Origin: Vicingaceae bacterium
GTDB taxonomy: Bacteria > Bacteroidota > Bacteroidia > Flavobacteriales_E > Vicingaceae
Assembly: GCA_032251145.1 (NCBI GenBank)
Contig: JAVVER010000001.1
Coordinates: 17,629-81,628, forward strand
Length of the DNA: 64,000 bases
Reading direction: 5' to 3'
How positions within the stretch are numbered: the stretch's first letter is position 1; each line of letters begins with the position of its first letter. Of the stretch, positions 22,494 to 40,530 are shown in pieces. Both the position numbers and the translations under genes were made by a program. The notes beneath the pieces were generated by a model. The model saw nothing but the letters and a program-made list of their open reading frames with translations, was not told the DNA's origin and made no database searches.

Positions 22494-23249
22494 ATGAAAA
22501 AACAAAAAATAACTTTTACCAACAAAAAAGGACTAGAGTTAGCAGCCCTAATAGAAATACCAGAAAACGATATTAAAGGGTTTGCTGTATTTGCTCATTG
22601 TTTTACTTGCAACAAGAACCTAACTGCAGTAACCAACATAGGTAGAGCTTTAAACGCTAACGGAATAGCCGTTTTGCGATTCGATTTTACTGGATTGGGT
22701 GAGAGCGAAGGCGAGTTTGAAAACACCAATTTTTCGTCAAATGTGGATGATTTAATTTCAGCAGCAGAATATCTAGAAAAAAATTATGAAGCTCCAAGTA
22801 TTTTAATAGGACATTCATTAGGCGGTGCAGCTGTTATTTTTGCAGCTAAACAATTACCAGGTATTAAAGCTGTTGCTACTGTTGGAGCACCTTCCAACCC
22901 AAAGCATGTTGCTCATTTATTCAAATCGGGTATAGATGAAATTAACCAAAAAGGAGAAGCTCTTTTATCTATAGGGGGAAGAGATTTTAAAATTCAAAAG
23001 CATTTTTTGGAAGATATTAACGAGCAAAACATGGCACAAACTGTAAAAGATATGAATAAGGCCTTGTTGGTACTTCACTCACCACAAGATACTACCGTTG
23101 GAATAGAAAATGCAGCTCAAATTTATCAGGCAGCTTGGCATCCAAAAAGTTTTATTTCATTAGATGGAGCCGACCACTTATTGTCTAAAAAAGAAGATTC
23201 GCAATACGTTGGACAAATGATAGCCAATTGGTCGGTAAGATACATATAA
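22494..23249 (+). CDS. alpha/beta hydrolase
   Basis: GHSLGG nucleophile elbow and a late DH (GADHLL) catalytic His. Confidence 0.75.
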   Translation: MKKQKITFTNKKGLELAALIEIPENDIKGFAVFAHCFTCNKNLTAVTNIGRALNANGIAVLRFDFTGLGESEGEFENTNFSSNVDDLISAAEYLEKNYEAPSILIGHSLGGAAVIFAAKQLPGIKAVATVGAPSNPKHVAHLFKSGIDEINQKGEALLSIGGRDFKIQKHFLEDINEQNMAQTVKDMNKALLVLHSPQDTTVGIENAAQIYQAAWHPKSFISLDGADHLLSKKEDSQYVGQMIANWSVRYI

Positions 23250-23259
23250 AAACAAAAAA

Positions 23260-24183
23260 ATGAACGCTTTAGTAATTTCTGGTGGAGGTAGTAAAGGAGC
23301 TTTTGCAGGTGGCATAGCAGAATACCTTATTAACACAAAAAAAAATCAATACGATATTTTTGTAGGAAGCTCTGTAGGAAGTTTGTTAATTAGTCAGTTA
23401 GCAATCAACAACATTGATAAGATAAAAAAAACCTTTACCAGTATTTCTAACAGTGATATTTTTAATATTTCTCCTTTCATCGTTAATAAAAAAGAAGAAA
23501 TTCCAAGCATACGAATAAACCATTTTAATACTTTAAGAGCGTTTTTAAAGGGGTGCAATACCTTTGGCGAGAGCAAAAACTTAAGAAAGTTAATTGAAAA
23601 AGTACATTCCGAAAGCGAATTTGATTTACTTAAGAAGTCAAAAAAAGTATTTTTTACTGTTTCTAACCTTACAGAAAATAAAGTAGAATATATTGATGCA
23701 TCTACTTGTACATACAACGATTATTGCGACTGGATGTGGGCTTCTGCTAATTACGTTCCGTTTATGAGTTTGATGACAAAAAACGGCAAACAATATGCCG
23801 ATGGTGGTTTCGCGTGTCATGTTCCAGTATTACAGGCAATTAATAATGGAGCAACCAATATAGACGTGATTATTTTAGACGAAGAAATTAACGAAAATAT
23901 AACCCATCCTGCTTACAACAATCCTTTCCAATCGTTAATGGGAGTTTTTACGTTTATGACAAATCAAATTGCACTAAAAGATATTTTGATAACAAAACTC
24001 GAAGGGCGACAATCTCAAATTGATATAAAATTTTGGTATCCGCCTAAAAACATAACCAATAACCCACTTTATTTCAACTCCAAATTAATGACAAAATGGT
24101 GGGATGATGGCTATGAAAGAGCTAAAACTACTCCGCCAATTTGTTACTGTTTTATGGATAACGGAGATTTAAAAATTATGTAA
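23260..24183 (+). CDS. patatin-like phospholipase
   Basis: GGGSKG oxyanion motif, GSSVG (GxSxG) and DGG catalytic Asp. Confidence 0.8.
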   Translation: MNALVISGGGSKGAFAGGIAEYLINTKKNQYDIFVGSSVGSLLISQLAINNIDKIKKTFTSISNSDIFNISPFIVNKKEEIPSIRINHFNTLRAFLKGCNTFGESKNLRKLIEKVHSESEFDLLKKSKKVFFTVSNLTENKVEYIDASTCTYNDYCDWMWASANYVPFMSLMTKNGKQYADGGFACHVPVLQAINNGATNIDVIILDEEINENITHPAYNNPFQSLMGVFTFMTNQIALKDILITKLEGRQSQIDIKFWYPPKNITNNPLYFNSKLMTKWWDDGYERAKTTPPICYCFMDNGDLKIM

Positions 24184-24215
24184 TCAATACAACTAAATAA
24201 TCAAATAAATAAAAC

Positions 24216-25721
24216 ATGAAAGTAAGAGAAACATTTATCCTATTATCAATAATTATAATTGCCTCAATTGTAGGTTTATCTTTTGTTTGGCAACCCATTC
24301 TGTGGAGTTTTATTCTTTTTGGACCACTAATTTTGTTGGGTTACTCTGATATTCTTCAAAACAAACAAACCATAAAAAAGAATTTTCCAGTTATTGGTCA
24401 TTTTAGGTATATTTTAGAAAAGATACGACCTGAAATTATGCAATATTTTGTTGAAACAGATACCGAAGGAACTCCCATAAACAGAATTTTTAGGTCATTA
24501 ATTTATCAACGATCAAAAAAAGTAAATGATACTACGCCTTTTGGAACAAGGATGGATGTTTATAGAACAGGCTATGAATGGATGGATCATTCTGTTTATG
24601 CAAAAAGCGGACATGATTTAGACAACTCCCCAAGAGTATTAGTTGGAGGAAAAGATTGTAAAAAACACTATTCGGCAAGTATTTTAAATATCTCAGCCAT
24701 GAGTTTTGGTGCGTTAAGTCAAAATGCTGTACTGGCAATGAATACTGGAGCAAAAATGGGTGGGTTTGCTCACAATACAGGAGAAGGCGGAATTAGTCCC
24801 TACCACAAAAAACCAGGCGGAGATTTAATTTGGCAAATTGGTACGGGTTATTTTGGTTGTAGAACAAAAGAAGGCAATTTTTGCCCAGATACATTCCAAA
24901 AAAATGCGACTATAGAGAATGTAAAAATGATAGAAATAAAACTATCTCAAGGAGCAAAACCAGGGCATGGGGGAATTTTACCGGCAAGTAAAAATACCGA
25001 AGAAATTGCTGCTATAAGACACGTAGCACCTTTTACTGATGTTCATTCGCCTCCTGGACATAAAGCTTTTAATAATGCAGAAGGTTTAATGCTCTTTATC
25101 AAACAATTAAGAGATTTGTCGGGTGGAAAACCTATCGGATTCAAATTATGTGTTGGTAAAAAGCAAGAATTTATCGACTTTTGTGAGGCAATGCTAAAAA
25201 CAGGCATTAAACCTGATTTTATTACAGTTGATGGCGGAGAAGGAGGAACTGGAGCTGCTCCTGTTGAGTTTTCTAACTCATTAGGAATGCCGCTTAGAGA
25301 TGGATTAGCATTTGTTGTTGATACTCTTAAGAAATACAATTTAAAAGAAGAAATTAAAGTAGTTGCTTCTGGAAAAATATTCACAGGATTTCATATTGCT
25401 AGAGTAATTGCTTTAGGAGCAGATATGGTAAACAGTGCAAGAGCTATGATGATGGCAGTGGGTTGTATTCAAGCTTTACAATGTAACACCAACACTTGTC
25501 CGGTTGGTGTTGCCACACAAAACAAAAGCCTAATGAAAGGGTTAAATGTAAATGATAAATCGGTAAGGGTGGCTAATTTTCATGCTGAAACCGTAAAAAG
25601 TTTTGTAGAATTACTAGCTGCTTCGGGCTTATCAAAACCTGAAGAATTATCAAGGGTACATATAAACAGAAGAGTTTCTGAAACTAAAGTGATGAAATAC
25701 AGCGAAATATATCCTGAATAA
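24216..25721 (+). CDS. FMN-binding glutamate synthase family protein (GltB domain-2-like), membrane-anchored
   Basis: 501 aa, N-terminal TM helices, with ITVDGGEGGTGAAP and QGAKPGHGG motifs. Confidence 0.8.
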   Translation: MKVRETFILLSIIIIASIVGLSFVWQPILWSFILFGPLILLGYSDILQNKQTIKKNFPVIGHFRYILEKIRPEIMQYFVETDTEGTPINRIFRSLIYQRSKKVNDTTPFGTRMDVYRTGYEWMDHSVYAKSGHDLDNSPRVLVGGKDCKKHYSASILNISAMSFGALSQNAVLAMNTGAKMGGFAHNTGEGGISPYHKKPGGDLIWQIGTGYFGCRTKEGNFCPDTFQKNATIENVKMIEIKLSQGAKPGHGGILPASKNTEEIAAIRHVAPFTDVHSPPGHKAFNNAEGLMLFIKQLRDLSGGKPIGFKLCVGKKQEFIDFCEAMLKTGIKPDFITVDGGEGGTGAAPVEFSNSLGMPLRDGLAFVVDTLKKYNLKEEIKVVASGKIFTGFHIARVIALGADMVNSARAMMMAVGCIQALQCNTNTCPVGVATQNKSLMKGLNVNDKSVRVANFHAETVKSFVELLAASGLSKPEELSRVHINRRVSETKVMKYSEIYPE

Positions 25722-25742
25722 AAATCAGTAAAAATCTAATTT

Positions 25743-26894
25743 ATGAGCAATTCCCTTTTAACAGAAGTAGAAAAACACGTTTTTAACTTGTTTAAGCAAG
25801 GCAGCAATGCTAAACTAGTTTACCACAACTTTAAACACACCAACGAGGTGGTTAAAAATGTAAAAGAAATTGCTGCTGCAGAAAAAATTAGTGACGAAGA
25901 GTTGGAATTGGTTTTAATTGCGGCTTGGTTTCATGATATTGGTTACCTAACCACTTGCGAAAATCATGAGCAATTGGGGGTAGAAGAAGCTACTCGTTTT
26001 TTACAACAACAAAATTTTTCCTCAGAAAAAATAAAAGTGGTTGCTGATTGCATATTGGCTACTAAGTTAGGCACCGAACCTACTAATTTATTACAAGAAA
26101 TTATATGTGATGCCGATATGACTGGATTGTCAAAATCGGATTACTCCGAGCGTACTCAACTTTTAAGAGCCGAATGTTGTGTAATTAAAAATGAAGAATT
26201 TGAAGAAGATGAATGGTTAAAAAAAGAAATAGTCTTTTTGTCTAACCATAAATACTACACCAAATATGCACTATTAAATTTTAATGAACCTAAATATAAA
26301 AACCTACTACAAAAAGAAAAAGAATTAGATAAAATAGAAAAAAAGCTGAGCAAAGTAGAATCTCCTGAAAAAGGAATTGAAACCATGTTTAGAACGGCAC
26401 TAAAAAACCACATGGAATTGAGTGCTATTGCCGATAACAAAGCCAATATTATGCTAAGTATTAATGCTTTAGTAATTTCAATAGTGGTTTCATCCTTAAT
26501 CTCAAAATTTGATAAGCATCCTGAGTTTATTGTTCCAACAGTCCTTATGCTTGTTGTATGTCTAATTGCTATTGTTTTAGCAACCCTTTCCACCAAACCT
26601 AAAATTACGGAAGGAAAATTTACTACTGATGATGTGAAAAAGAGAAAGGCAAACTTATTGTTTTTTGGAAATTTTCACAGCATGGAGTTAACAGACTACG
26701 AGTGGGGAATGAAAGAAATTATGAAAGATAAAGAGTATTTGTACTCTTCATTAATCAGAGATTTATACTTTTTAGGCGTTGTGTTAGCAAAAAAATACAC
26801 CTATCTCAGGTGGTGTTATACCGTTTTTATGTACGGAATGATTTTAAGCGTTGGAGTTTATGCGGTTGCTATTTTATTTACCAATCATCATTAA
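25743..26894 (+). CDS. HD-domain phosphohydrolase fused to a PycTM/DUF5706-like membrane module
   Basis: H...HD...D (FKHTNE, WFHDIGY, CDADM) in the N-terminal half. C-terminal half: MFRTALKNHMELSAIADNKANIMLSINALVISIVVS followed by further TM helices. Confidence 0.65.
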   Translation: MSNSLLTEVEKHVFNLFKQGSNAKLVYHNFKHTNEVVKNVKEIAAAEKISDEELELVLIAAWFHDIGYLTTCENHEQLGVEEATRFLQQQNFSSEKIKVVADCILATKLGTEPTNLLQEIICDADMTGLSKSDYSERTQLLRAECCVIKNEEFEEDEWLKKEIVFLSNHKYYTKYALLNFNEPKYKNLLQKEKELDKIEKKLSKVESPEKGIETMFRTALKNHMELSAIADNKANIMLSINALVISIVVSSLISKFDKHPEFIVPTVLMLVVCLIAIVLATLSTKPKITEGKFTTDDVKKRKANLLFFGNFHSMELTDYEWGMKEIMKDKEYLYSSLIRDLYFLGVVLAKKYTYLRWCYTVFMYGMILSVGVYAVAILFTNHH

Positions 26895-27958
26895 TTCTCT
26901 CGCTCTAATATACCTTTAAAATTATTGATAGATTTGGTAAACGATTTTCGCATTGCTTCTTTAAACATTCTATTTAAGAAGGTGTTTTTAAAGAAAATAT
27001 CCATAGAAAGTTTTACCGTATGTTCATTAATAGGCTCAATAGTGAAAACATGGCTTGAGGTTGGTAAAAAACCTCCATTAATAACCCTTTCGGCATAAAT
27101 AATTTTGTTGTCTTGGGTGGCTTTGTTTTCTGAGGTAATTATGTTTAATGAATTAAAAGGCAATAAACATTCGTGTTGTGTTCCAATTCGAGGTACTTTA
27201 GTTTGGTCAAACTTTACTTTTTTTAACCCAACAATCCATTCTTTTTTTCGGTTGAGGTCTTTTAGTAGTTCATGTGCTTTTTCTAAAGAGGTTTGTATAT
27301 TGGTTTCAATATGAACAATAGGGTTGTCTATTGCTATTTCTGGTCTTGGAGCTGGTTCTGGAATTCTGTTCAAAAGTTCTTTTAAATAAGAAAAAAAATA
27401 GTTTACCTCTCCCAAATCTTCATAAAACGAATTGCCTTTAGAAAAATTTTTCCAATTATTAGCTTCGCCATTATCTATTAAACTTTCGGTAATTAATAAA
27501 TATTCGTGTACCTCTAAATCATTCTTCATCAGCTTATGCACTTTGGTTACATCTGGTCCCATTAATTGCAGATGACCCACAATATGTCGTTCTACAATGT
27601 TGCCATAATGCACCACAAATTTTAAAGTAAGTTCTTGGGTATGAGAACAAGATCCACAATCACAAATTCGATCTCTTTCATAAAGTTTTAGGTGTTGGTG
27701 AAATGCCAAAAACATCTTTTCGCACTGGTCGTAAATTTCTTTTACAGATGGTTTTTTACCAACGCGATAAAAAAGTACCGCATCGCCTTCAATTTCGGCA
27801 ACTTTAAGCCCTAATGTATTGTTTTTAATAATAATTTCGAGCAGCTCAGCTACAATGTGTGTTGCATGAATAATCTCAGTATCGTTTACAAAACGAGTAA
27901 AACCACTAATATCAGGTATTAGGAGTAAGGATTTCTTTAAAGTATCGTCTATTTGCAA
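26891..27958 (-). CDS. class III nucleotidyl cyclase-like (DUF2652-type) domain fused to a C-terminal SRPBCC-like domain
   Basis: PDISGFTRF (DIxGFT metal Asp) and EIEGDAVLFY (GDA metal Asp), then VHYGNIV...MGPDVTKVHKL. Its stop codon overlaps the stop of the convergent HD gene (TTAA, 26891-26894). Confidence 0.6.
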   Translation of the reverse strand: MQIDDTLKKSLLLIPDISGFTRFVNDTEIIHATHIVAELLEIIIKNNTLGLKVAEIEGDAVLFYRVGKKPSVKEIYDQCEKMFLAFHQHLKLYERDRICDCGSCSHTQELTLKFVVHYGNIVERHIVGHLQLMGPDVTKVHKLMKNDLEVHEYLLITESLIDNGEANNWKNFSKGNSFYEDLGEVNYFFSYLKELLNRIPEPAPRPEIAIDNPIVHIETNIQTSLEKAHELLKDLNRKKEWIVGLKKVKFDQTKVPRIGTQHECLLPFNSLNIITSENKATQDNKIIYAERVINGGFLPTSSHVFTIEPINEHTVKLSMDIFFKNTFLNRMFKEAMRKSFTKSINNFKGILEREN

Positions 27959-28068
27959 AAGAAAAGAGATTAGTTTTAAGTAACAAATTTAAGCTTATTT
28001 CAACTATATAAATGTAATATTGATAGTGAAAAATCATTAATATATTATAATAAATAAAATTAACTATA

Positions 28069-30099
28069 ATGAACAAATATTTCGACCGAGAATTAAGTTG
28101 GTTATCATTTAATTACAGGGTTTTACAAGAAGCCATCAATCCTAAAGTTCCACTAATTGAGCGTATTCGGTTTTTGGCAATATTTTCTTCCAATTTAGAT
28201 GAGTTTTATCGGGTTCGTGTAGCGTCTTATATGCATTTGCTTAAATTACAAGAAATTGAAGGTGTGCCTAAAGACGAAAAAGCAAAAAAACTACTCAAAA
28301 AAATTAAAAAGACGGTAAAAAAACAACAGGTTGAATTTGGTCATATTTACAGAAATGAACTCATTCCGCTTTTACAAAAAGAAAATATTTTTATTATTAA
28401 TGATAAAGACGTAACAAAAGAGCAGCAAAAGTTTTTAGCTCCTTATTTTAACGAAAAAATTAAACCCTTTCTTCAAGTAACAGAGTTAGATGCTAGTGCT
28501 ACTACATTTTTAAAAGATAAAGGCTTGTACCTTACTGTTAGTAGCCAGAATGCCCACAACACTTTTTATTTAATTAATTTACCAACCGATAAAACAGAGC
28601 GTTTTATTAAACTACCCACAAACACCAATCAAGAAATTATTATTTTACTTTCTGATGTGATACGTGTTTTTATTAACGAACTTATTCCAAATTTAAAGAA
28701 TCCTAATTGTTTTGCCATTAAATTAAGTAGAGATGCCGAATTGTATTTAGAGGAAGAAATTGCAGAAACCGTAAAAGGAAAAATATTAAACAGCTTAAAC
28801 AAACGAAAAATTGGCGACCCCTCTCGTTTTCTATACGATGAAAGCATGCCCAAGGAAACCCTAAAGGTATTGCGAAAATATTTAGGACTAAAAAAAGATG
28901 AACTGGTTCCTGGTGGTAGATACCATAATTTTAATGATTTTTTTAAACTTCCTATTAAAGGAAATCCTTCACTTTTTTATGACGATTTGCCTACGTTAAA
29001 ACACCATGAATTAGATAATTACCCCTCCATTTTTGAAGCCCTTCAGCAAAAAGAATTTGCATTGCATTTTCCATATCAACAATACGACTATGTGCTCAAT
29101 TTTGTTGAACAAGCCAGTATCGACAATGCGGTGCTTGAAATAAACATTACCCTTTACCGTGTTGCCAAAGAATCTCGAATTTGTAAAGCATTGATTGTAG
29201 CTGCCAAAAATGGAAAAAAAGTTACGGTTTTTAGTGAATTAAAAGCCCGATTTGATGAAGAGTTAAATATGAAATGGGCAAGTGAAATGAAAGCAGCAGG
29301 TGTTAGTGTTATTTATAGTTTTGAGGAGTTGAAAGTACACTCTAAAATTTGTTTAATTAAACGACAAGAAGGTAAAAAAGTAGTGAACTACGCCTATTTT
29401 GGAACAGGTAACTTTAATGAAGATACTTCAAAAATTTATTGCGATCATGCTTTATTAACTTCTGATAGTCAATTAACCAGCGAACTAGGAAATGTTTTTA
29501 GCTTCTTAAAAGGAGAAATTAAACAGCCTACTTTTAATCATTTGCTAGTTGCCCCGTTTAATTTACGCCAAGAGTTTGAACACCTAATAGATGCTGAAAT
29601 TGAACACGTTAAAAACGGAAAAATTGGCAAAATGGTGCTTAAAATGAATAGCTTGGAAGATAAACAAATGATTAAAAAACTATACGAGGCAAGTAATGCA
29701 GGAGTTAAAATAATCATTATTGTAAGAGGTATTTGTTGTTTAATTCCAGGTGTAGATGGCATGAGCAAAAACATTAAAGTAATTAGTATAATTGACCGAT
29801 ATTTAGAGCATGGAAGAATTTATTTGTTTCATAACAATGGCGATGAAAAACTGTATTTGGCTTCGGCAGATTGGATGAAAAGAAACTTAAGTCACAGGGT
29901 AGAAGTGGCTTTTCCTGTTTACAACACAACGCTAAAAAATGAGATAAAGAAATTAATCTCACTTCAACTAAAAGACAATGTAAAAGCAAGAAACCTGAAT
30001 AGAACACAAAGCAATCCTTATAAAAAATCTACATCAACAACCAGCGTGAGAGCTCAATACGATTTTTATGATTATTTAAAGCCCCAATTCCTTTCGTAA
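28069..30099 (+). CDS. ppk1: polyphosphate kinase 1
   Basis: 676 aa. The N-terminus FDRELSWLSFNYRVLQEA and the two PLD-like HxK regions (VHSKICLI, LEHGRIYLF) are typical of PPK1. Confidence 0.95.
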   Translation: MNKYFDRELSWLSFNYRVLQEAINPKVPLIERIRFLAIFSSNLDEFYRVRVASYMHLLKLQEIEGVPKDEKAKKLLKKIKKTVKKQQVEFGHIYRNELIPLLQKENIFIINDKDVTKEQQKFLAPYFNEKIKPFLQVTELDASATTFLKDKGLYLTVSSQNAHNTFYLINLPTDKTERFIKLPTNTNQEIIILLSDVIRVFINELIPNLKNPNCFAIKLSRDAELYLEEEIAETVKGKILNSLNKRKIGDPSRFLYDESMPKETLKVLRKYLGLKKDELVPGGRYHNFNDFFKLPIKGNPSLFYDDLPTLKHHELDNYPSIFEALQQKEFALHFPYQQYDYVLNFVEQASIDNAVLEINITLYRVAKESRICKALIVAAKNGKKVTVFSELKARFDEELNMKWASEMKAAGVSVIYSFEELKVHSKICLIKRQEGKKVVNYAYFGTGNFNEDTSKIYCDHALLTSDSQLTSELGNVFSFLKGEIKQPTFNHLLVAPFNLRQEFEHLIDAEIEHVKNGKIGKMVLKMNSLEDKQMIKKLYEASNAGVKIIIIVRGICCLIPGVDGMSKNIKVISIIDRYLEHGRIYLFHNNGDEKLYLASADWMKRNLSHRVEVAFPVYNTTLKNEIKKLISLQLKDNVKARNLNRTQSNPYKKSTSTTSVRAQYDFYDYLKPQFLS

Positions 30100-30975
30100 C
30101 AAACTGTCTTTTACTGCATTTTTTGTCCAATAAGCATTTTTTAGCGTGTTGATTTTGGTTGCTTTGGTGGTTAATTTTTCGGCTTTATCGCCCCAACCAC
30201 TCACATAAGTTTCTTCCCAACTTTCTATGGCGTAGGGAAATACATTTTGATAATGAATGGTTAGCGTTCTTTCCAGCTCAGGATAATAAATGCTGTAAAT
30301 GGTAAGGTTTTTTTCGATTGCAGTAGAAATTTCTGCACGATAAGCTTTAAGCTCTTTGTGCATTAATCTCACATAAAAAAGAGAAGGAATAAGTTTTGTT
30401 TTTCCTGTTGGCAACATTTCAGGGTTGGTTCTTATTCTCAACCAAATTTCATCTTCCAATACATCATTCGGGATAGAAGAAGTGTTATCGCCTTCACTTT
30501 CAAAATAAGAAAATGAATTAACATTCCATTTATTTTTTCTTTGGTTGAGTTGAGTAAAAGCATGTCCGCACCACTCTTGAGCCGAACTGGTTGCTTTAAT
30601 AAGCGGTTTGCTTAAATCATCAATAGGGAGAAATAAGGAATTCATCATAGAATACGGGTAAATTCCGGTATTGAATTTCTTGGTAAAATTTAGTTTTAAT
30701 ACCAAAAAATCGTTTGGTGTTGGATTATCGGCTTTTACTTGTTTTTCTTTTGAAAACGGTTCGGTAACATAAATTAATACGGCATTTCCCTGTCGGATTT
30801 CTCCGTAACGAGCTTGTTCCAATTTATAGGAAGTAATTTCTGCTTCGTTGTTAAACCAATAGTTGTTAAAAGCGGTTGATGTTTTTTCAATAATTTCAGT
30901 TTGCTTTTCGGGATTAGTAAAGCTACAAGCCGATAACAAGCCTATGATAGTAATAAATTTTAGTGTTGATTTCAT
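30076..30975 (-). CDS. lipoprotein, unknown function (last gene of the giant-OMP operon)
   Basis: Lipobox LLSAC. Its 3' end overlaps ppk1 by 24 nt, convergently. Confidence 0.55.
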   Translation of the reverse strand: MKSTLKFITIIGLLSACSFTNPEKQTEIIEKTSTAFNNYWFNNEAEITSYKLEQARYGEIRQGNAVLIYVTEPFSKEKQVKADNPTPNDFLVLKLNFTKKFNTGIYPYSMMNSLFLPIDDLSKPLIKATSSAQEWCGHAFTQLNQRKNKWNVNSFSYFESEGDNTSSIPNDVLEDEIWLRIRTNPEMLPTGKTKLIPSLFYVRLMHKELKAYRAEISTAIEKNLTIYSIYYPELERTLTIHYQNVFPYAIESWEETYVSGWGDKAEKLTTKATKINTLKNAYWTKNAVKDSLLRKELGL

Positions 30976-30989
30976 AAAAAATGGTTAGA

Positions 30990-31964
30990 TTATATTTTCA
31001 AAATTAAGCCTAAACTTCCGTAATAAAAATGCCTTCCTCTGGTAGTTTCTGCAGTAATTAAATGGTGCCTAAAAAAAGTGGTAAATCTTTTTCTCGAAAA
31101 ATTAATAGCTGCGGAAACATCTACATTTACTCGGTGCATACCTTCTGTATTCATGTTATTATTTTCTCCAAAAAATCGTCCTTGTATGGTTGCTTTGTAG
31201 CCCCAAGTTACCAAATGAGCCCCGAAATCTAAAAAAAATTCACTTTCCGGTGGCGTGTCATTATGTGTTAAGTTGGTATTGTAAAAAAAGGTATTTTCTA
31301 TGCTGTTAAACTTTCCGAAACGCCCCATAAAACCTTGTTTAAAATAAGTAGCTTGCGTTCCCAAACTGGCACTTGTTTGCGAATGAATGTCAAATTTTCC
31401 AAACGATAGTAAAGGAAGATTAAACCCTACTCCAATGTTTGCTGCCACTTCATTTTGCACTTGGTTGTCCCATGCTTCAAACTTGGGATTGTTAATTAAC
31501 ACATGAAAATTATCTTGTAATTTTTCAGCTCCTGAAGCAGGTCCTAAAATGCCAATAGTTAAACTAATAAACGTAAGTGATTTTTGATTAGCGATAGTAA
31601 TTTTATTCTCGGCAAATAACCAACCTGCATACGGTCTGTCAAATTCTACAAAAACACCATTTACTTTTTTATCACGATCTTGGTCGGAGGTGTAGCCTTC
31701 TATTCCTGCATGCCAGTTTACTATTACTTTTTCTAAATTCGGTTTTAGTTTTTTAGCTAATTCAACTATTTTGCTATCATTTTTAGCTAGTTTTCTATAA
31801 TCGAAATGCAATCCAAAAGAGTAATACCTGTCGGCAACTTTTCGTTTAAAAGTTAAAATATCATTGTCTTTTTGAAGCTGAATTTCTTGGTCGTACATTT
31901 TCTTCTGAGCCCACAAATCAGAGCTGAGTAATAAGAGTAAGATGCCAATAAATCTAAATTTCAT
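30990..31964 (-). CDS. LpxR-like (DUF2219) outer-membrane lipid A deacylase family protein
   Basis: Signal peptide, N-terminal DNDILTF...DRYYSFG motif like LpxR family proteins, and a beta-barrel pattern. Confidence 0.5.
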   Translation of the reverse strand: MKFRFIGILLLLLSSDLWAQKKMYDQEIQLQKDNDILTFKRKVADRYYSFGLHFDYRKLAKNDSKIVELAKKLKPNLEKVIVNWHAGIEGYTSDQDRDKKVNGVFVEFDRPYAGWLFAENKITIANQKSLTFISLTIGILGPASGAEKLQDNFHVLINNPKFEAWDNQVQNEVAANIGVGFNLPLLSFGKFDIHSQTSASLGTQATYFKQGFMGRFGKFNSIENTFFYNTNLTHNDTPPESEFFLDFGAHLVTWGYKATIQGRFFGENNNMNTEGMHRVNVDVSAAINFSRKRFTTFFRHHLITAETTRGRHFYYGSLGLILKI

Positions 31965-31983
31965 TTTTTATCTAAATATATAT

Positions 31984-32871
31984 TTACAGTTTCCAATTTA
32001 ATGTTAACCCTGTAGCATTTCCATACCTAAATGGAGCAACAGACAAATTAGATTCTTTGTTTTTCTTTTTATGTAAATGTGGCACTAACCAACCCACAGA
32101 AGCACCAATGGCATAGCCAACAATTACATCGGAAGGAAAATGGTTTCCGGCATCTACCCTAAGATAAGCCATAGCGGCTGGAAGTGTTAAAGCAACTGTC
32201 CAAATTCCAACGCCAACTCCTTTTCTCATGTTAGGATGATAATCATGAATTACCTTAGCCATAAAAACAGAGAAAGCTGCGGTTTGTGCCGTATGTCCCG
32301 AAAAAAAAGATAACCTGCTGTTAGATGCTGTTCTAGCATCAAAAGAAAATTTGTCGCTATAAACTAATGGTCGGGTTCTGTTAAAGGTATATTTTGCATT
32401 CATGGTTAGCCCAGATGTTATGGCAAATACTTCAACTGCCATTATTCCAAGTCGTCCAATATCTTTTCCAGTGTGGTGATTGCTAAAAAAGAATAGAGGT
32501 AAGGCTAATTCCGAATAGAGTAAAATATCACTTAGTTTTTTAGAGCTTTTATCATCATTGTAAATAGCAACTCTGTCAAAACGATTTACTTCATCAGGAT
32601 TTAATTGGTTCAGCTCATTAAGAGTAAAAGCTGATTTTCCGTTATATTCTCTTAAAATTAACCCAGAACTAAGTAAACCTATACCAGCAACAAAAAATGG
32701 AATTTCTTTTTTAAAATTTATCTCATAAGGCGATTCGTTGGTGTGTTCGCCATTGACGCAATAGTTACAAATATGACCTGTTTTATTCAAGTTTACATCC
32801 TGAGCTTTTAGCTGACTAAAAAGCGTTAAAATAGACGTAAGTGTTAAAATTATTTTTTTAATTCTATACAT
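31984..32871 (-). CDS. PAP2 family lipid phosphatase
   Basis: KYTFNRTRP, SGHTA and RVDAGNHFPSDV match KxxxxxxRP / SGH / SRxxxxxHxxxD. The track start at 32907 lies inside a repeat, so I prefer ATG at 32871 (MYRIKKIILTL signal peptide). Confidence 0.8.
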   Translation of the reverse strand: MYRIKKIILTLTSILTLFSQLKAQDVNLNKTGHICNYCVNGEHTNESPYEINFKKEIPFFVAGIGLLSSGLILREYNGKSAFTLNELNQLNPDEVNRFDRVAIYNDDKSSKKLSDILLYSELALPLFFFSNHHTGKDIGRLGIMAVEVFAITSGLTMNAKYTFNRTRPLVYSDKFSFDARTASNSRLSFFSGHTAQTAAFSVFMAKVIHDYHPNMRKGVGVGIWTVALTLPAAMAYLRVDAGNHFPSDVIVGYAIGASVGWLVPHLHKKKNKESNLSVAPFRYGNATGLTLNWKL

Positions 32872-32893
32872 AGTTATTATAGTTTTACTATTT

Positions 32894-32970
32894 CTTTTTC
32901 CTACCATTTAGGCATTAAGATTATTAAGGTTTGTTTTTAATGGTTCTTAATTTCTTAATGGTTATTTAAT
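32894..32970 (-). repeat. TTAAG/CTTAA triple-palindrome intergenic repeat, copy R4
   Basis: The reverse complement aligns with 46604-46680 along its length. The right half AACCTTAATAATCTTAATGCCTAAATGG is almost identical. Confidence 0.8.
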
Positions 32971-35900
32971 TTAAAACAAAAATCCCATTTTAAGTATAAA
33001 TAAATTTTCTTCTGACGAAACAGCGTAAGAAGCATTAATTACCAACATATCAAAAGGACTCATCCAAACACCGCCACCAACACTGTTGTGCCATTTGGTT
33101 GATGTATCGTTGCTTGTCCAAACTCTACCTAAATCAAAAAAACCAAGTACGCCCAATTGACCAGGAAATAAATACGATTTAAAATTGGTGAGTTTTATGC
33201 GTAAATCCTGATTAAAAGTTAAACTACTTCTTCCCGAAAAGCGATCTCTTCTAAACCCTCTTAAATCGCCATTACGGTGGTTCCTGTTTTGAGCCCCAAT
33301 GGTTGCTGCTTGAAAAAATTCAAATTTATCCACCAAATGAACGCCTTTTACATTGGAAGAAAAAACCACATTTTTTCCGAAAGGCAAATACATGGCAAAT
33401 TGCGACTCTAACCTTCCAAAATGTAAACTTGCATTTTCTGCTTCTCTTTCCCAACTTCCGCTAACATGAAAATTAATTCCTCGTGTAGGGATTACTTTAC
33501 TATCGGTATTATTGAAAGAATATTGTAATTCCATGCCTAAATAATTTCGTGCTGAAAGGCTGCTTACATAATTGGAAGCTAAATCGCTTGTTATAAATCT
33601 ATCTTCAGACGCCTCTACATCAATGTGTTGGTATTTTGGTCCAAATTTAATTTCATTAAATTTCCCTACATTATGCACCAACATTGGTTGAAATTTAATT
33701 TCGTTAAATCGCACTAAGTGAAATGAGTTGTCTTCGCCATTTACTACTTGAGTTTCGTTACCTAAACCATAAAAATTAGTGGTACTATTGGGGGCGTTTA
33801 CAGACGCATCAATATCTAAGTCTAATTTTTTAATTAAATCAACAAATTTTCCATCATATTCAATATTAAAGCTATTGGTCTTCAACGCTCTATTGGCAAC
33901 AAACCGATTAAAATGAGCATAAGGTTTTTTTCTAAATCCGTGTTTGGTAATGGCAACTCCACCACCTAAAAACAAGCCATCATCAATATTATAACCTACA
34001 AATAATTGTGGAATAAGCATATCGTATTTAAACTCTTTCCTGTCGTATTCGTTAATCATTTTTTGATGCGAAACCAAGTTTTTTAATTCGTTGTTTTTTT
34101 CGCAAACTACTATGTTTTCTTCTTTTTTAGTATCATAATATTTTGTTTTTTTACGAAGTCCTTTTACGTTAGAAATGTCGGTAATTTCATCGTTGCCTTC
34201 TCCGCCAATTATTCGCACTAAAATTCCTTTGTTCACTTCTCCTTCTATGGTAAAAACATCTTTTCCGCCCAAGCCATAAATGCGTATTTCTTTGGTTTCA
34301 AAACGATTAAAATCTCTGCTGTAATACAAACTGCCTTTTTCTCCTTTTTTTAGGTGATATACTTTTACAGAAGTGATGGTATCATTTACTCTAACAATTT
34401 CAAATTTTTCAGCTTTATTACTTCCCACCACATTTACGTGTTTTGCCAGTACATAATAATATCTTTCGGCAAATTCTTGTAATTTATCTCTTCTCGAAAG
34501 CAATTTTGCAGTAATTTCTTCGCCATCAAGTTTATAAATGGTATCGGGCCAGAGTTTAATGGCATTAATAATCACACTATCGGTTAAGTTTTGTTGCATT
34601 TCGGCAGCCAAATCAAGCCATTCTTGTTTGTCTAACCGAGTTAAAAATGAACGGTCGATGTATCTTCCATTAAAATTCATCCCACTAATATCACGAATAT
34701 CGTAATCGAAATGCTGGAGTTTCCGAACCACCCATTTTCTTCCTGCCAAACGAGGAATTAAGCCATCAAACTTTACAAAAGCTTGGTCTCTATCTCTCGG
34801 AATTGGAATGTAGTATTTGTTGTTATCAATTAAATGGCTGCAATGCTCATGGTTTTCTTTTGCACAAGTATATTCAGCCCAACGCCATTGGTCTTCGTGC
34901 CTGTCCCAATCGCCAATAAGCATATCAAACAAACGATTTCGGAGCATTTCTTCCTCATCAACAACAAAATTATGATCATCTAACACCTTATGAATTAATT
35001 TTTGAGAATTGATGGCATTGGTGGTGTAACCAAAGTTTCCGGTTGAAGAAACATCTTTGGCAGCACGTTGCTCAAACAACATGAGTTGGTTGGCAAAATC
35101 TTCACGATATTCCAACAAGTGAGGGTCGTTTGGCACAGCAACTAGCTGTGGTTTAGAATGTAAAATACCCACTGCTTCTGCCATTGGCGGAATAACAAAA
35201 GCACTGTAAGGATGAGCAGTAGAAATTTGATCTTGCACCACTTCGGCAGCTGCGGTATTTCTTAATTCTTCGGGCAATGCTGCTGATGGGTCTTTTTGTA
35301 TGGATCGAAAAACATATTCGTTGCCATTTTCGGCTTTTAATCGGAGCGATTTAGTTTGTTGTCCGCCACCTCGCTGAATTGGTGTTAAACCTCCATAGGT
35401 ATTATGAATGTCAATTGTTGGCACTTCAACAGGAGTTTGCCATGCTTTTCGGTAATGTTCGCCCAGCAAAAACTTTTTCATAAAACTTGCTTCATAGTTT
35501 TCACCTGGGATTAATGTCATTGTTTTTGGAATACTTAATGTATCGGTAATATCAACATCTTCTTTACTTTCTTTTTGCTTTGCTTCAACCAAAATTTTGC
35601 TAAAAATAAGTTCCGATTTTTCGTTGGAAATTTGCCACGTTTCCATTAAAACAGCACCAGAATTAAGTACAATTAATTTAAAAAAACCTTTTTCTTCGGC
35701 AGAAAAATCAGGTGTTTTTAGTTGCTTAACGGGTGTTGTTTTACTTCCCGAACCACTTACAATATAATGGTGGTTTTGTTGTTCTGTTTTATCAAAATAT
35801 TGCAAATTATGTTCATGCCCGGCAGCATAAATCAGGTTTGGATGAAATTTAAAAACGTGCTGCAGTTCGCTAATCATTTCTTGGTATTCGGCATGGTTTA

Positions 35901-36699
35901 CATCTTGCAGATTGCCAATTTTTTTGCGATACAAAGGATAAATTGATCCTAAAATAGGCAGCGGAAGGTATAAATTTTTATTAAGATTAGTAAGTGGAAA
36001 AAGATGATCGGAAAAAGTAGCATAACCATTGTGTTCGCCTTTAGTCATTAACGGATGATGCCCTACAATTAAAACGGTTTTGTCCGTATTTTCTTCTAAA
36101 ATGTCTTTAATACTTGCAATTACATCGGCTTTGGTTTCTTCATCACAAGCTCCAGTTTCTATAGGCCCTTTTTCGTATTGATGCAGCCACCACTGTGTGT
36201 CAATGGCAATAATCACCATTTTTTTACTTATTTTTACTTTGTATGGGCCTGGACAGCCTCTTTCGGGAATTAACACGTCTTTTACATTAAAAGCATTTTC
36301 TAAATATTTTTGTTGATGATTGATATAGCTCAATCCGTTGCGATTACCTTGGTTCCAATCGTGATTGCCTGGAATAAAATAAATGGTTGACTTTAGCTCT
36401 TTTAACCGATTGATTTGATAATCAATTATCGCTTTAGCTTGTTCGTGATTTTTTTTGTTTTTTGGCGGAATTCCATTTGGATAAACATTATCTCCCAAAA
36501 AGAAAATGGTGCTTTTTTCTTCAATGGTTTTTGCTTGTTGAATTAATTCATTAAAAACGGCTTGTGTTTTTTCTTTTGGTTCACCAGCATCGCCTACTAA
36601 AAAGATAACATGATCAATACTGTCTTTATGTTGAGTAAAGGCTTTGCTAATTAGTAAAAAACTAAAAAAGAGGAGTGTGATATGATGTTTCGTGTTCAA
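32971..36699 (-). CDS. giant OM protein, paralog 3: metallophosphoesterase (intact motifs) + DRHxDNW module + Omp85-type barrel
   Basis: 1242 aa. TTG start is forced, since there is an in-frame stop 12 nt upstream and no earlier ATG. Signal peptide present. GDAG, GDNVYPNG, GNHDW, GHHP, GHEH. Central LIGDWDRHEDQWRW and PRDRDQAF. C-terminus RGFRRDRFSG ... GGGVWM ... MGFLF. Confidence 0.75.
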   Translation of the reverse strand: MNTKHHITLLFFSFLLISKAFTQHKDSIDHVIFLVGDAGEPKEKTQAVFNELIQQAKTIEEKSTIFFLGDNVYPNGIPPKNKKNHEQAKAIIDYQINRLKELKSTIYFIPGNHDWNQGNRNGLSYINHQQKYLENAFNVKDVLIPERGCPGPYKVKISKKMVIIAIDTQWWLHQYEKGPIETGACDEETKADVIASIKDILEENTDKTVLIVGHHPLMTKGEHNGYATFSDHLFPLTNLNKNLYLPLPILGSIYPLYRKKIGNLQDVNHAEYQEMISELQHVFKFHPNLIYAAGHEHNLQYFDKTEQQNHHYIVSGSGSKTTPVKQLKTPDFSAEEKGFFKLIVLNSGAVLMETWQISNEKSELIFSKILVEAKQKESKEDVDITDTLSIPKTMTLIPGENYEASFMKKFLLGEHYRKAWQTPVEVPTIDIHNTYGGLTPIQRGGGQQTKSLRLKAENGNEYVFRSIQKDPSAALPEELRNTAAAEVVQDQISTAHPYSAFVIPPMAEAVGILHSKPQLVAVPNDPHLLEYREDFANQLMLFEQRAAKDVSSTGNFGYTTNAINSQKLIHKVLDDHNFVVDEEEMLRNRLFDMLIGDWDRHEDQWRWAEYTCAKENHEHCSHLIDNNKYYIPIPRDRDQAFVKFDGLIPRLAGRKWVVRKLQHFDYDIRDISGMNFNGRYIDRSFLTRLDKQEWLDLAAEMQQNLTDSVIINAIKLWPDTIYKLDGEEITAKLLSRRDKLQEFAERYYYVLAKHVNVVGSNKAEKFEIVRVNDTITSVKVYHLKKGEKGSLYYSRDFNRFETKEIRIYGLGGKDVFTIEGEVNKGILVRIIGGEGNDEITDISNVKGLRKKTKYYDTKKEENIVVCEKNNELKNLVSHQKMINEYDRKEFKYDMLIPQLFVGYNIDDGLFLGGGVAITKHGFRKKPYAHFNRFVANRALKTNSFNIEYDGKFVDLIKKLDLDIDASVNAPNSTTNFYGLGNETQVVNGEDNSFHLVRFNEIKFQPMLVHNVGKFNEIKFGPKYQHIDVEASEDRFITSDLASNYVSSLSARNYLGMELQYSFNNTDSKVIPTRGINFHVSGSWEREAENASLHFGRLESQFAMYLPFGKNVVFSSNVKGVHLVDKFEFFQAATIGAQNRNHRNGDLRGFRRDRFSGRSSLTFNQDLRIKLTNFKSYLFPGQLGVLGFFDLGRVWTSNDTSTKWHNSVGGGVWMSPFDMLVINASYAVSSEENLFILKMGFLF

Positions 36700-36772: not shown

Positions 36773-36883
36773 ATGTTAGAGTTCGAGGCTTTCGTAGTTT
36801 TGGAAATCAGGAGTTTACTTTCGTAAATGACTGGTTTTCAAAACAAGAATAACGAAGAAATCGGACATATTAGACAGTCTCTA
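36773..36883. repeat. 111-nt intergenic repeat, copy B
   Basis: 98/111 identical to 248-358. Hairpin arms are 36797-36818 and 36823-36844. The last 3 nt are the stop codon of paralog 2. Confidence 0.8.
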
Positions 36884-40525: not shown

Positions 40526-40530
40526 TATTT

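What the first reader, a model, noticed from the sequence alone, without database searches (positions are those of the whole stretch)
25743..27958. Convergent, stop-codon-overlapping pair: cyclase-like/SRPBCC protein and HD + PycTM-like membrane protein
Seen: the 355-aa minus-strand protein carries the two metal-Asp motifs of class III nucleotidyl cyclases (PDISGFTRF; EIEGDAVLFY) and a matching beta-strand/helix pattern (VHYGNIV...MGPDVTKVHKL). However, the canonical transition-state Asn/Arg (xVNxAxR) is not evident, and a CDCGSCSH insert is present. Its C-terminal ~150 aa looks like a ligand-binding SRPBCC/START fold. The 383-aa plus-strand protein has an HD phosphohydrolase domain fused to a membrane module (SAIADNKANIMLSINALVISIVVS...) resembling the TM effector domain of Pycsar systems. 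The two genes share a TTAA at 26891-26894 that serves as a stop codon on both strands. Established: Pycsar pairs a class III-type cyclase with a TM or TIR effector, but co-directionally, and HD domains include cyclic-nucleotide phosphodiesterases. Inference: a ligand-gated (SRPBCC) nucleotide-second-messenger generator paired with a membrane effector or degrader. A patatin phospholipase gene lies 1.5 kb upstream. This could be housekeeping signalling rather than defence.
Basis: partly seen in the sequence, partly recalled or inferred. Interest (0 to 1): 0.7.

Follow-up and report, generated by a model that had tools for sequence, protein, structure and literature searches.

The report
Cyclase-like gene beside HD membrane protein
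Two uncharacterised chromosomal genes of a Bacteroidota bacterium, a probable signalling-nucleotide cyclase with a ligand-binding domain and a membrane phosphohydrolase related to a phage-defence pore protein, most likely belong to a housekeeping signalling module next to the polyphosphate kinase gene and not to a phage-defence system.

Summary
ORF + 25743-26894 encodes HD (PF01966) fused to a PycTM/DUF5706 three-helix membrane module (PF18967, E 1e-35). ORF - 26891-27958 encodes DUF2652 (E 5e-45), which models as a class III cyclase fold plus a C-terminal START/SRPBCC fold. The two genes share TTAA as stop codons.

The Pycsar-like defence reading is not supported:
- No PycC-type cyclase profile matches.
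- Both genes evolve about as slowly as the neighbouring ppk1.
- Both are absent from phages and nearly absent from plasmids.

Synteny is partial. Only 5 of 52 fully flanked DUF2652 loci carry HD-PycTM within 5 kb, and only 1 of 26 HD-PycTM loci carries DUF2652. The usual partners of HD-PycTM are a 1,200-aa metallophosphoesterase-Omp85 protein (20/26) and PPK1 (11/26).

This neighbourhood does repeatedly recruit class III-type cyclases of several architectures: DUF2652-START, GC-TPR and shorter GC proteins. One of these (L117) has the same convergent geometry as the window.

Best reading: a housekeeping cNMP input to an HD-3TM/PPK1/envelope module. DUF2652 as cyclase-like was published in 2016, without biochemistry. 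Interest is moderate; I class it as a new variant of a known kind.

The parts
25743..26894 (+). HD-3TM gene (383 aa): N-terminal HD phosphohydrolase fused to a C-terminal PycTM/DUF5706 (pJV1-SpdB3-type) three-helix membrane module
   Evidence: ORF. Pfam HD and PycTM. PADLOC PycTM/2TM effector models. 100% identical to an NCBI MAG Vicingaceae protein, P0121. AF2 pLDDT 86.
25830..26117 (+). HD domain (aa 30-125); H32, H64-D65, H75-E76 and D123-A-D125 are invariant in 21 homologues
   Evidence: Pfam. Alignment A2. Foldseek hits to 2pq7, 2pjq, YpgQ and YedJ; PDE5A only weakly.
26355..26891 (+). 3TM module (aa 205-383): amphipathic helix with GIETMFR, ADNKAN at the start of TM1, TM2, a ~70-aa loop with NLLFFGNF that is predicted to be cytoplasmic, and TM3
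   Evidence: 1,779 representative clusters match at E<=1e-3; the closest are mostly ~400-aa proteins with the module at the C-terminus.
26891..27958 (-). DUF2652-START gene (355 aa): class III cyclase-like domain plus a C-terminal SRPBCC/START domain
   Evidence: ORF. Pfam DUF2652. AF2 pLDDT 89.6, pTM 0.81. Foldseek hits to class III cyclases and PYR/PYL/START proteins. 100% identical to an NCBI MAG protein, P0001.
27479..27958 (-). Cyclase-like domain (aa 1-160): metal Asp D16 and D59, E55 and Q131 at the specificity positions, K113/H117/G119, T138 at the Asn position, K142 at the Arg position
   Evidence: Alignment A1. hhalign against canonical cyclase domains, E 1.3e-4. Foldseek hits to 4yut, 5oyh, 2w01 and 1wc1, E ~2e-7. 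PMC4886424.
27647..27664 (-). CxCxxC motif (C99, C101, C104), invariant together with H87; a putative Zn or redox site inserted in the cyclase-like domain
   Evidence: Invariant columns of A1. The metal site is an inference.
26894..27331 (-). SRPBCC/START domain (aa 210-355) with invariant G259, H262, C264 and E290
   Evidence: Foldseek hits to 3k90, 3kay, 7tmu and 5z8o, E 4e-8 to 4e-7, TMt 0.66-0.78. A1.
26891..26894 (.). TTAA shared by the two convergent stop codons
   Evidence: Not conserved as such in relatives.
27959..28068 (.). 110-bp divergent intergenic region between the DUF2652 gene and ppk1. The divergent arrangement is conserved in L001, L002, L008, L161, L162 and L163.
28069..30099 (+). 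Polyphosphate kinase 1, a conserved neighbour of both genes
   Evidence: Pfam PP_kinase domains. Neighbour census.
32971..36699 (-). Metallophosphoesterase + Omp85 outer-membrane protein (1242 aa), the most frequent neighbour of HD-PycTM elsewhere
   Evidence: Pfam. Present in 20/26 fully flanked HD-PycTM loci.
22494..25721 (+). Co-directional genes upstream of HD-3TM: alpha/beta hydrolase, patatin and a Glu_synthase-like FMN protein, with gaps of 10, 32 and 21 nt. They are probably co-transcribed with HD-3TM.
   Evidence: The abH-GltS-HD-PycTM order is kept in L163, without patatin.

Best explanation
These are two vertically inherited housekeeping genes of a loosely conserved gene neighbourhood around ppk1 in FCB-group bacteria (Bacteroidota, Calditrichota, Ignavibacteriota, Gemmatimonadota).

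The core of that neighbourhood is the HD-3TM inner-membrane protein, PPK1 and a large outer-membrane metallophosphoesterase-Omp85 protein. The core repeatedly recruits a class III-type nucleotidyl cyclase, and in this genome that role is filled by DUF2652-START.

Proposed mechanism:
1. A small hydrophobic ligand binds the START domain and controls the cyclase-like domain, probably as a homodimer with two metal-binding Asp residues. The fold and residues are shown; the regulation is inferred.
2. The domain makes a cyclic mononucleotide. A purine nucleotide is favoured by the E55 / K-or-Q131 pair. This step is inferred and was predicted in PMC4886424.
3. The nucleotide acts on HD-3TM. Its C-terminal module is homologous to the cNMP-activated 3TM effectors of Pycsar and Pucsar. 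The nucleotide either gates the oligomeric membrane module or is hydrolysed by the HD domain as a built-in off-switch. This step is inferred.
4. The output concerns phosphate, polyphosphate or envelope physiology, not abortive infection. This is inferred from gene context.

The convergent, stop-overlapping layout reflects tight gene packing, not a defining feature.
For: Domains and folds.

Catalytic motifs are conserved in 21 homologues and map onto canonical cyclase motifs.

The arrangement PPK1(-)|DUF2652(+)|HD-PycTM(-) is kept in relatives at 83-42% identity. This was read directly in L161 (51%), L162 (44%) and L163 (69%) (identities), and in L001 and L002. The 83% relative is inferred from matching contig lengths in the two hit lists.

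Other lineages place the two genes co-directionally (L003, L011, L043, L158, L159) or a few kb apart (L020, L097). Shuffled order with retained proximity across phyla argues for a functional link.

5/52 DUF2652 loci have HD-PycTM within 5 kb, against about 0.25% expected for one random gene in a 4-Mb genome.

Canonical PF00211 cyclases replace DUF2652 in the same neighbourhood:
- L117: convergent and overlapping with HD-PycTM.
- L167: HD-PycTM followed by a cyclase, co-directional.
- L040 and L162: PPK1 followed by a cyclase.
- L102: a cyclase followed by PPK1.
- L144 and L147: a cyclase next to MPE-Omp85.
- L166: two cyclases and two cNMP-binding proteins around HD-PycTM-PPK1.

11/99 cluster loci carry a canonical cyclase, against 2/67 non-cluster loci, Fisher p=0.048. 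6/26 fully flanked HD-PycTM loci have some class III-type cyclase.

Housekeeping character: identity to the window in L001/L002/L008 is 63/45/43% for HD-PycTM and 68/52/48% for PPK1. There were no phage hits, and only 6 plus 2 non-mobilizable megaplasmid hits.
Against: - No enzymology exists for DUF2652, for this HD subfamily or for any HD-fused 3TM protein.
- Most HD-PycTM loci (20/26) have no cyclase within 8 kb, and most DUF2652-START genes (about 85%) sit in unrelated contexts, for example between holB-like and pgk in Flavobacteriaceae.
- The enrichment of canonical cyclases is only marginally significant and is not corrected for phylogeny.
- The transition-state Asn is missing.
- The HD fold is closest to YpgQ/YedJ-type hydrolases, not to cNMP phosphodiesterases.
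- Where a nucleotide would bind in the 3TM module is unknown, even for the defence homologues (10.64898/2026.08.12.744502).
Confidence: 0.42

Rival explanations
1. No direct functional link. The two genes are neighbours by descent in one clade. HD-3TM works with PPK1 and MPE-Omp85 independently of cyclic nucleotides. DUF2652-START signals to targets elsewhere, such as CRP/FNR-type cNMP-binding regulators.
For: HD-PycTM loci carry MPE-Omp85 in 20/26 and PPK1 in 11/26, but DUF2652 in only 1/26. DUF2652-START has no constant neighbour in about 85% of genomes. In the NJ tree the association is concentrated mainly in one broad DUF2652 clade.
Against: The association recurs in separate branches and phyla with different gene order and orientation, including probable operons (L003, L158, L159). 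Unrelated canonical cyclases and cNMP-binding genes occupy equivalent positions. The 3TM module is homologous to cNMP-activated effectors.
Confidence: 0.35
2. A Pycsar-like abortive-infection defence system. A phage-triggered cyclase makes a cNMP that opens the PycTM-like pore and kills the cell.
For: The PycTM Pfam profile and the PADLOC PycTM and CBASS-2TM effector profiles match the C-terminal module. A cyclase-fold gene is adjacent. NCBI names homologues 'Pycsar system effector family protein'.
Against: - No PycC or other defence cyclase profile matches DUF2652.
- The flanking genes are housekeeping (ppk1, LpxR, PAP2, Glu_synthase-like), and no mobile-element or defence gene was identified among the genes examined from 19.7 to 44.3 kb.
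- Both proteins evolve as slowly as PPK1. Immune cyclases are reported to evolve fast (10.64898/2026.08.12.744502).
- Neither gene was found in phages, and both are nearly absent from plasmids.
- HD-3TM usually lacks any adjacent cyclase.
Confidence: 0.04
3. DUF2652 is not a cyclase. It is a cyclase-fold protein with another activity or a purely regulatory role, for example a ligand- or redox-sensing START/Zn protein. The HD domain acts on non-cyclic substrates such as NTPs, polyP or (p)ppGpp.
For: The Asn is missing and the Arg is replaced by Lys in this protein. An invariant CxCxxC/His insert is absent from canonical cyclases. The sequence-profile similarity to PF00211 domains is weak (probability 54%). 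The HD fold is nearest to the NTP pyrophosphohydrolase YpgQ, and the protein is linked to PPK1.
Against: Both metal Asp residues, the GD motif, the K/HxG strand and the K/R at the Arg position are invariant or nearly so. Active class III cyclases that lack the Asn are known (PMC4886424). Canonical cyclases substitute in the same neighbourhood.
Confidence: 0.18

Closest known systems
Pycsar / Pucsar (cyclase + PycTM/PucTM 3TM effector; Tal et al. 2021, recalled from my own knowledge; bioRxiv 10.64898/2026.08.12.744502)
   Same: A class III-fold cyclase gene lies next to a gene whose membrane module is homologous, over its full length (aa 219-378), to PycTM and CBASS 2TM effectors.
   Different: - The cyclase is DUF2652, not PycC.
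- It carries a START domain and a Cys3-His insert.
- The effector has an N-terminal HD hydrolase.
- The genes are convergent.
- The context is housekeeping, evolution is slow, and no mobile-element link was found.
- The partner gene is usually absent.
DUF2652 'nucleotide cyclase-like proteins' (Ramakrishnan et al. 2016, Biol Direct, PMC4886424)
   Same: Same Pfam family. Same predicted residues (D,D / E,K / H,R-type) and the same guanylate-cyclase-like prediction for Bacteroidetes members. One HD (PF01966) neighbour was already listed there (HSW_3799 next to W8FCI6).
   Different: That paper treated the ~360-aa Bacteroidetes proteins as single-domain. Here the C-terminal half is shown to be a START/SRPBCC fold. 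The HD neighbour is shown to carry a PycTM-type module, and the pair to sit in a ppk1/MPE-Omp85 neighbourhood.
Physiological class III adenylyl/guanylyl cyclases with sensor domains (e.g. Cya2 2w01, CyaC 1wc1, OaPAC 4yut)
   Same: Fold, metal Asp pair, and a sensor domain fused to the catalytic domain.
   Different: The sensor is a C-terminal START domain. The Asn is absent. There is a CxCxxC insert. Sequence similarity is only marginal at profile level.
YpgQ/YedJ-type stand-alone HD phosphohydrolases (5dqw, 3gw7, 2pq7)
   Same: HD fold and metal-binding motif.
   Different: Here the HD domain is fused to a 3TM membrane module. The substrate is unknown.

Membership tests
Pycsar | PycC-type pyrimidine cyclase | tested here: not met
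   PADLOC scan of the 355-aa protein at E<=0.1 gave only chance-level JetA and Cas10 hits. Pfam gives DUF2652, not Guanylate_cyc.
Pycsar | Effector with a PycTM membrane module (or CNBD-TIR) | tested here: met
   PF18967 E 1.1e-35. PADLOC PycTM E 1.6e-18 over 12-155 of 160 profile positions.
Pycsar | Two-gene co-directional operon, with patchy, mobile or defence-island distribution and fast evolution | tested here: not met
   The genes are convergent in the window. The flanks are housekeeping. HD-PycTM identity tracks PPK1 identity across phyla. There were 0 phage and 6 megaplasmid hits.
Pycsar | Protection against phage through a cNMP signal | not testable with these tools
   Needs phage challenge assays and nucleotide LC-MS.
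Class III nucleotidyl cyclase | [quoted passage not shown] | tested here: met
   AF2 model pLDDT 89.6. Foldseek probability 1.0 to 4yut, 5oyh, 2w01 and 1wc1, about 200 aligned columns, TMt 0.6-0.69.
Class III nucleotidyl cyclase | Two metal-binding Asp residues | tested here: met
   D16 (>=90% of sequences) and D59 (invariant) in 21 homologues. D16 aligns with the first canonical metal Asp in hhalign; around D59 the hhalign register is offset, so that assignment rests on the GD motif.
Class III nucleotidyl cyclase | Transition-state Asn and Arg (xVNxAxR) | tested here: not met
   T138 aligns with Asn. K142 (K or R in the family) aligns with Arg. Active cyclases that lack the Asn exist (PMC4886424).
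Class III nucleotidyl cyclase | Cyclase activity | not testable with these tools
   No biochemical report was found for DUF2652.
DUF2652 (PF10851) | Pfam gathering score | tested here: met
   152.7 bits against a cut-off of 22.1.
SRPBCC/START | Helix-grip fold with a ligand cavity | tested here: met
   Foldseek E 4e-8 to PYR1/PYL1 and to YPO0625 (TMt 0.77). By sequence, Polyketide_cyc2 scores 17.3 bits, below the 27.4 cut-off. The ligand is unknown.
HD phosphohydrolase | H...HD...D metal motif and HD fold | tested here: met
   PF01966 33.9 bits against 22. H32, H64-D65 and D125 are invariant. Foldseek hit to 2pq7, E 8e-4.
Cyclic-nucleotide phosphodiesterase (HD-type) | Specific similarity to cNMP or c-di-NMP PDE subfamilies | tested here: inconclusive
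   PDE5A appears only at E 0.03-0.1, below YpgQ/YedJ-type hydrolases. HD-GYP appears at E>0.3.
PycTM / pJV1-SpdB3 3TM family (PF18967) | Pfam gathering score and three TM helices | tested here: met
   122.7 bits against 27.2. In the AF2 model, DSSP helices 210-255, 260-284 and 330-381 contain the three hydrophobic TM segments. Family description from 10.64898/2026.08.12.744502.

The most novel reading that the evidence does not exclude
The HD-3TM protein is the physiological, slowly evolving counterpart of the Pycsar/Pucsar pore effector. Together with PPK1 and the outer-membrane metallophosphoesterase-Omp85 proteins it would form an envelope-spanning phosphate or polyphosphate module of FCB-group bacteria. 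That module would be switched by cyclic nucleotides from dedicated cyclases, one of which (DUF2652-START) senses a lipid-like ligand. This would be a first cellular function for the PycTM fold, a first link between cNMP signalling and polyphosphate metabolism in Bacteroidota, and a plausible evolutionary source of the defence effector.
Probability: 0.2. Interest if true: 0.75.

Novelty: new variant of a known kind. Interest (0 to 1): 0.45.

Why it matters
Both families are large and have no experimental function. The DUF2652-START family returned more than 2,000 hits and the HD-PycTM family more than 7,500 in a database clustered at 90% identity.

Databases now label the HD-3TM proteins 'Pycsar system effector'. 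That label would mislead defence-system censuses, because the evidence here points to a housekeeping role.

If the link between cyclase, HD-3TM and PPK1 is real, it offers a tractable entry into cNMP signalling in Bacteroidota, into how polyphosphate metabolism is regulated there, and into how defence effectors were recruited from cellular membrane proteins.

Tried and rejected
- Sequence search of DUF2652-START against PDB chains gave no hit at E<=10. The fold search was needed.
- Literature searches for DUF5706, PF18967/PF10851, and 'polyphosphate kinase + Omp85 + metallophosphoesterase' returned nothing. The SLATT/HD/cyclase search returned nothing relevant.
- The terminator and promoter scan around the convergent junction found a hairpin at 26812-26798 (-) inside the HD-3TM gene. 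Site counts were not above the shuffles, and the sigma-70 consensus does not apply to Bacteroidota.
- The ~800-aa protein that flanks HD-PycTM in 30 loci has no Pfam hit and no PDB sequence hit.
- Patatin as part of the system was rejected. It has no homologue in any of the 160 related loci scanned, and its CBASS_lipase score is 27 bits against a cut-off of 200.
- The TTAA overlap as a special feature was rejected. Another convergent overlap lies 3 kb away, and the junction varies in relatives.
- The plasmid contexts H3 and H7 were uninformative.
Full report
OBSERVATION. The window comes from a MAG of a Vicingaceae bacterium (Bacteroidota). Both proteins are 100% identical to NCBI entries on an 82-kb contig. 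ORF + 25743-26894 (383 aa) and ORF - 26891-27958 (355 aa) exist as described, and TTAA at 26891-26894 provides TAA on both strands.

DOMAINS OF THE PLUS-STRAND PROTEIN. It has an HD domain (PF01966, E 4e-8, aa 30-125) and a PycTM/DUF5706 domain (PF18967, E 1.1e-35, aa 255-365). PADLOC PycTM and CBASS '2TM' effector profiles match aa 219-378 almost end to end (best E 1.6e-18). The C-terminal ~165 aa is therefore a complete homologue of the defence membrane effectors.

An alignment of 21 homologues shows an intact HD metal motif (H32, H64-D65, D123-A-D125). The membrane module has invariant motifs: GIETMFR, ADNKAN and NLLFFGNF. The AF2 model (pLDDT 86) is all-helical, and its long helices 210-255, 260-284 and 330-381 contain the three TM segments. 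Its HD part is closest to 2pq7, 2pjq, YpgQ and YedJ, and matches PDE5A only weakly. The membrane module matches nothing in the PDB copy.

DOMAINS OF THE MINUS-STRAND PROTEIN. It is DUF2652 (PF10851, E 5e-45), with a sub-threshold Polyketide_cyc2 hit at aa 219-349. There are no PDB sequence hits.

The AF2 model (pLDDT 89.6, pTM 0.81) matches class III cyclases over about 200 columns (OaPAC 4yut, RhGC 5oyh, Cya2 2w01, CyaC 1wc1; E ~2e-7). Its C-terminal half matches START/PYR-PYL/Bet v 1 proteins (E 4e-8).

In 21 homologues D59, E55, K113, H117, G119, G134, V137 and H141 are invariant, and D16 is kept in at least 90%. A profile-profile alignment with 11 canonical PF00211 domains taken from related loci gives E 1.3e-4 and probability 54%. 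It places PDISGFT on the first metal-Asp motif, LKFVVHYG on the RIGIHxG strand, T138 on the transition-state Asn and K142 on the Arg.

H87, C99, C101 and C104 (CxCxxC) are invariant. I infer a Zn or redox site. G259, H262, C264 and E290 in the START domain are also invariant.

That DUF2652 is cyclase-like, and that the Bacteroidetes members look guanylate-cyclase-like (D,D / E,K / H,R), was published computationally in 2016. That paper also lists one HD neighbour (PMC4886424). No biochemical study was found.

ARE THE TWO GENES A PAIR? The close relatives I could read keep the order PPK1(-)|DUF2652(+)|HD-PycTM(-). In L163 (69% identity) the convergent ends are 4 nt apart, in L161 (51%) they overlap by 36 nt, and in L162 (44%) they overlap by 4 nt. 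L001 and L008 overlap by 26 and 20 nt, and L002, L071 and L018 have gaps of 28, 99 and 121 nt.

Outside this group the picture changes. Among 80 genome loci that encode DUF2652-START relatives (one genome per species), only 10 have HD-PycTM within 8 kb. Among the 52 with at least 5 kb on both sides, 5 have it within 5 kb. In Flavobacteriaceae the gene sits between a holB-like gene and pgk.

In the reverse direction, among 80 metagenome loci chosen by similarity to HD-PycTM, 3 contain DUF2652. Among the 26 with full flanks, 1 does.

The residual association is still far above the roughly 0.25% expected for a random gene. It also recurs in separate DUF2652 branches and in other phyla, with different order and orientation:
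- co-directional in L003, L011, L043, L158 and L159;
- Calditrichia in L008;
- Melioribacteraceae in L020;
- Longimicrobiales in L043.

THE REAL NEIGHBOURHOOD. The frequent partners of HD-PycTM in fully flanked loci are:
- a ~1,200-aa metallophosphoesterase + Omp85 outer-membrane protein (20/26);
- PPK1 (11/26);
- an ~800-aa protein with no Pfam hit here (9/26);
- a SixA-like histidine phosphatase (7/26);
- an SdiA-regulated/phytase-like lipoprotein (7/26);
- a NUDIX protein (3/26).

The window has PPK1 110 bp upstream of, and divergent from, the DUF2652 gene. It also has LpxR, PAP2 and three tandem MPE-Omp85 paralogues. 13 of the 80 DUF2652 loci contain at least one of HD-PycTM, PPK1 or MPE-Omp85, again in shuffled order. 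Isolate genomes agree. Reichenbachiella has MPE-Omp85, an SdiA-regulated-like gene, HD-PycTM and PPK1 without DUF2652.

CYCLASES RECUR IN THIS NEIGHBOURHOOD. Canonical PF00211 cyclases, confirmed with Pfam, lie next to the cluster in several loci:
- L117: convergent and overlapping with HD-PycTM, the same geometry as in the window.
- L167 (Fulvitalea pFA2): HD-PycTM followed by a cyclase, co-directional.
- L040 and L162: PPK1 followed by a cyclase.
- L102: a cyclase followed by PPK1.
- L144 and L147: adjacent to MPE-Omp85.
- L001, L002 and L129: within the locus.
- L166: two GC-TPR cyclases and two cNMP-binding proteins surround HD-PycTM-PPK1.

11 of 99 cluster loci carry a canonical cyclase, against 2 of 67 loci without the cluster (Fisher one-sided p=0.048). 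6 of 26 fully flanked HD-PycTM loci have a DUF2652 or a PF00211 gene. The statistics are modest and not corrected for phylogeny. The substitution of unrelated cyclase architectures in equivalent positions is nevertheless the best argument that a cyclic nucleotide feeds into this module.

DEFENCE OR HOUSEKEEPING?
- No defence cyclase profile matches.
- The flanks are housekeeping genes.
- HD-PycTM identity to the window (63, 45 and 43% in L001, L002 and L008) tracks PPK1 identity (68, 52 and 48%). Immune cyclase clades, in contrast, are reported to evolve faster than physiological ones (10.64898/2026.08.12.744502).
- Neither protein has a phage hit. HD-PycTM occurs on 6 and DUF2652 on 2 of 72,556 plasmid records, all non-mobilizable large replicons.
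- Searching the 3TM module alone against 1.84 billion representatives gives 1,779 hits. The closest 150 are mostly ~400-aa proteins with the module at the C-terminus, the length and position expected for the HD-fused form; their HD domains were not checked individually.
- The preprint places PycTM in the broader 'pJV1-SpdB3 3TM' family and shows that a PucTM forms a hexameric cylinder with a ~15 A channel.

Homology to PycTM therefore does not imply defence.

MECHANISM. My best-supported reading (confidence about 0.4) is as follows. DUF2652-START is a ligand-regulated cyclase-type enzyme. Its product acts on the HD-3TM protein, either by gating the membrane module or by being hydrolysed by the HD domain. 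The output concerns phosphate, polyphosphate or envelope physiology.
- Shown: folds, motifs, gene contexts, and distribution.
- Inferred: the enzymatic activity, the identity of the nucleotide, the ligand, the coupling between the two proteins, and the physiological output.

The main rival (about 0.35) is that the adjacency has no direct mechanistic meaning. Defence is unlikely (about 0.04).

OTHER POINTS. HD-3TM is the last gene of a tightly spaced co-directional array: alpha/beta hydrolase, patatin, a Glu_synthase-like protein, then HD-3TM, with gaps of 10, 32 and 21 nt. L163 keeps this array without patatin, and patatin has no counterpart in the 160 related loci scanned, so it is incidental. 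The TTAA overlap is ordinary, since PPK1 and the next convergent ORF overlap by 24 nt.

VERDICT. The domain interpretation is right. The defence and 'dedicated pair' interpretations are not supported. The finding is better described as two members of an uncharacterised, conserved ppk1-centred neighbourhood that repeatedly recruits cyclases. Interest is moderate (0.45). I class it as a new variant of a known kind.

Noticed in passing
window 32971-36699, 36881-40543, 40689-44336 (all - strand): Three tandem paralogues (~30% pairwise identity, 1215-1242 aa) of a metallophosphoesterase + Omp85 outer-membrane protein. This family is the most frequent neighbour of HD-PycTM in other genomes (20/26 fully flanked loci). 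No literature was found.
   Followed up: partly
L081-L160, L165 (e.g. L128 9207-11579, L132 6948-7442, L099 1721-2575): There is a conserved uncharacterised neighbourhood around ppk1 in FCB-group bacteria. It contains HD-PycTM, MPE-Omp85, PPK1, an ~800-aa protein with no Pfam or PDB match, a SixA-like His_Phos_1 protein, an SdiA-regulated/phytase-like lipoprotein and a NUDIX protein. All are phosphate-related chemistries.
   Followed up: partly
L117 8001-10513; L167 7989-10679; L166 2852-14992; L040 11774-15810; L162 4508-7586: Canonical class III cyclases (GC-TPR of ~650 aa and X-GC of 360-460 aa) and cNMP-binding proteins sit immediately next to HD-PycTM or PPK1. In L117 a cyclase is convergent and overlapping with HD-PycTM, as DUF2652 is in the window.
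   Followed up: yes
window 22494-26894 (+): Alpha/beta hydrolase, patatin, a Glu_synthase-like FMN protein and HD-3TM form a co-directional array with gaps of 10, 32 and 21 nt, probably one operon. The patatin gene is missing from the same array in L163 and scores far below the CBASS lipase cut-off.
   Followed up: partly
window 30990-32907 (-): LpxR (lipid A 3'-O-deacylase family, E 5e-41) and a PAP2 phosphatase lie between ppk1 and the MPE-Omp85 genes. PAP2 recurs in L001, L002, L096, L132, L161 and L163, which hints at outer-membrane lipid remodelling in the same neighbourhood.
   Followed up: no
window 27647-27664 and 27697-27699 (- strand; aa 99-104 and H87); aa 259-290 of the same protein: An invariant H87 + C99xC101xxC104 motif lies inside the cyclase-like domain, and invariant G259/H262/C264/E290 lie in the START domain. 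Both look like possible metal or redox sites. Neither is discussed in the 2016 DUF2652 paper sections that I read.
   Followed up: no
window 30076-30099: PPK1 (+, ends 30099) and the convergent ORF 30076-30975 (-) overlap by 24 nt. Convergent 3' overlaps are common in this compact genome.
   Followed up: yes
P0197, P0224, P0237; plasmid hits H1, H3: NCBI annotation names HD-fused PF18967 proteins 'Pycsar system effector family protein', although their context is housekeeping. This is a likely source of false positives in defence-system surveys.
   Followed up: partly
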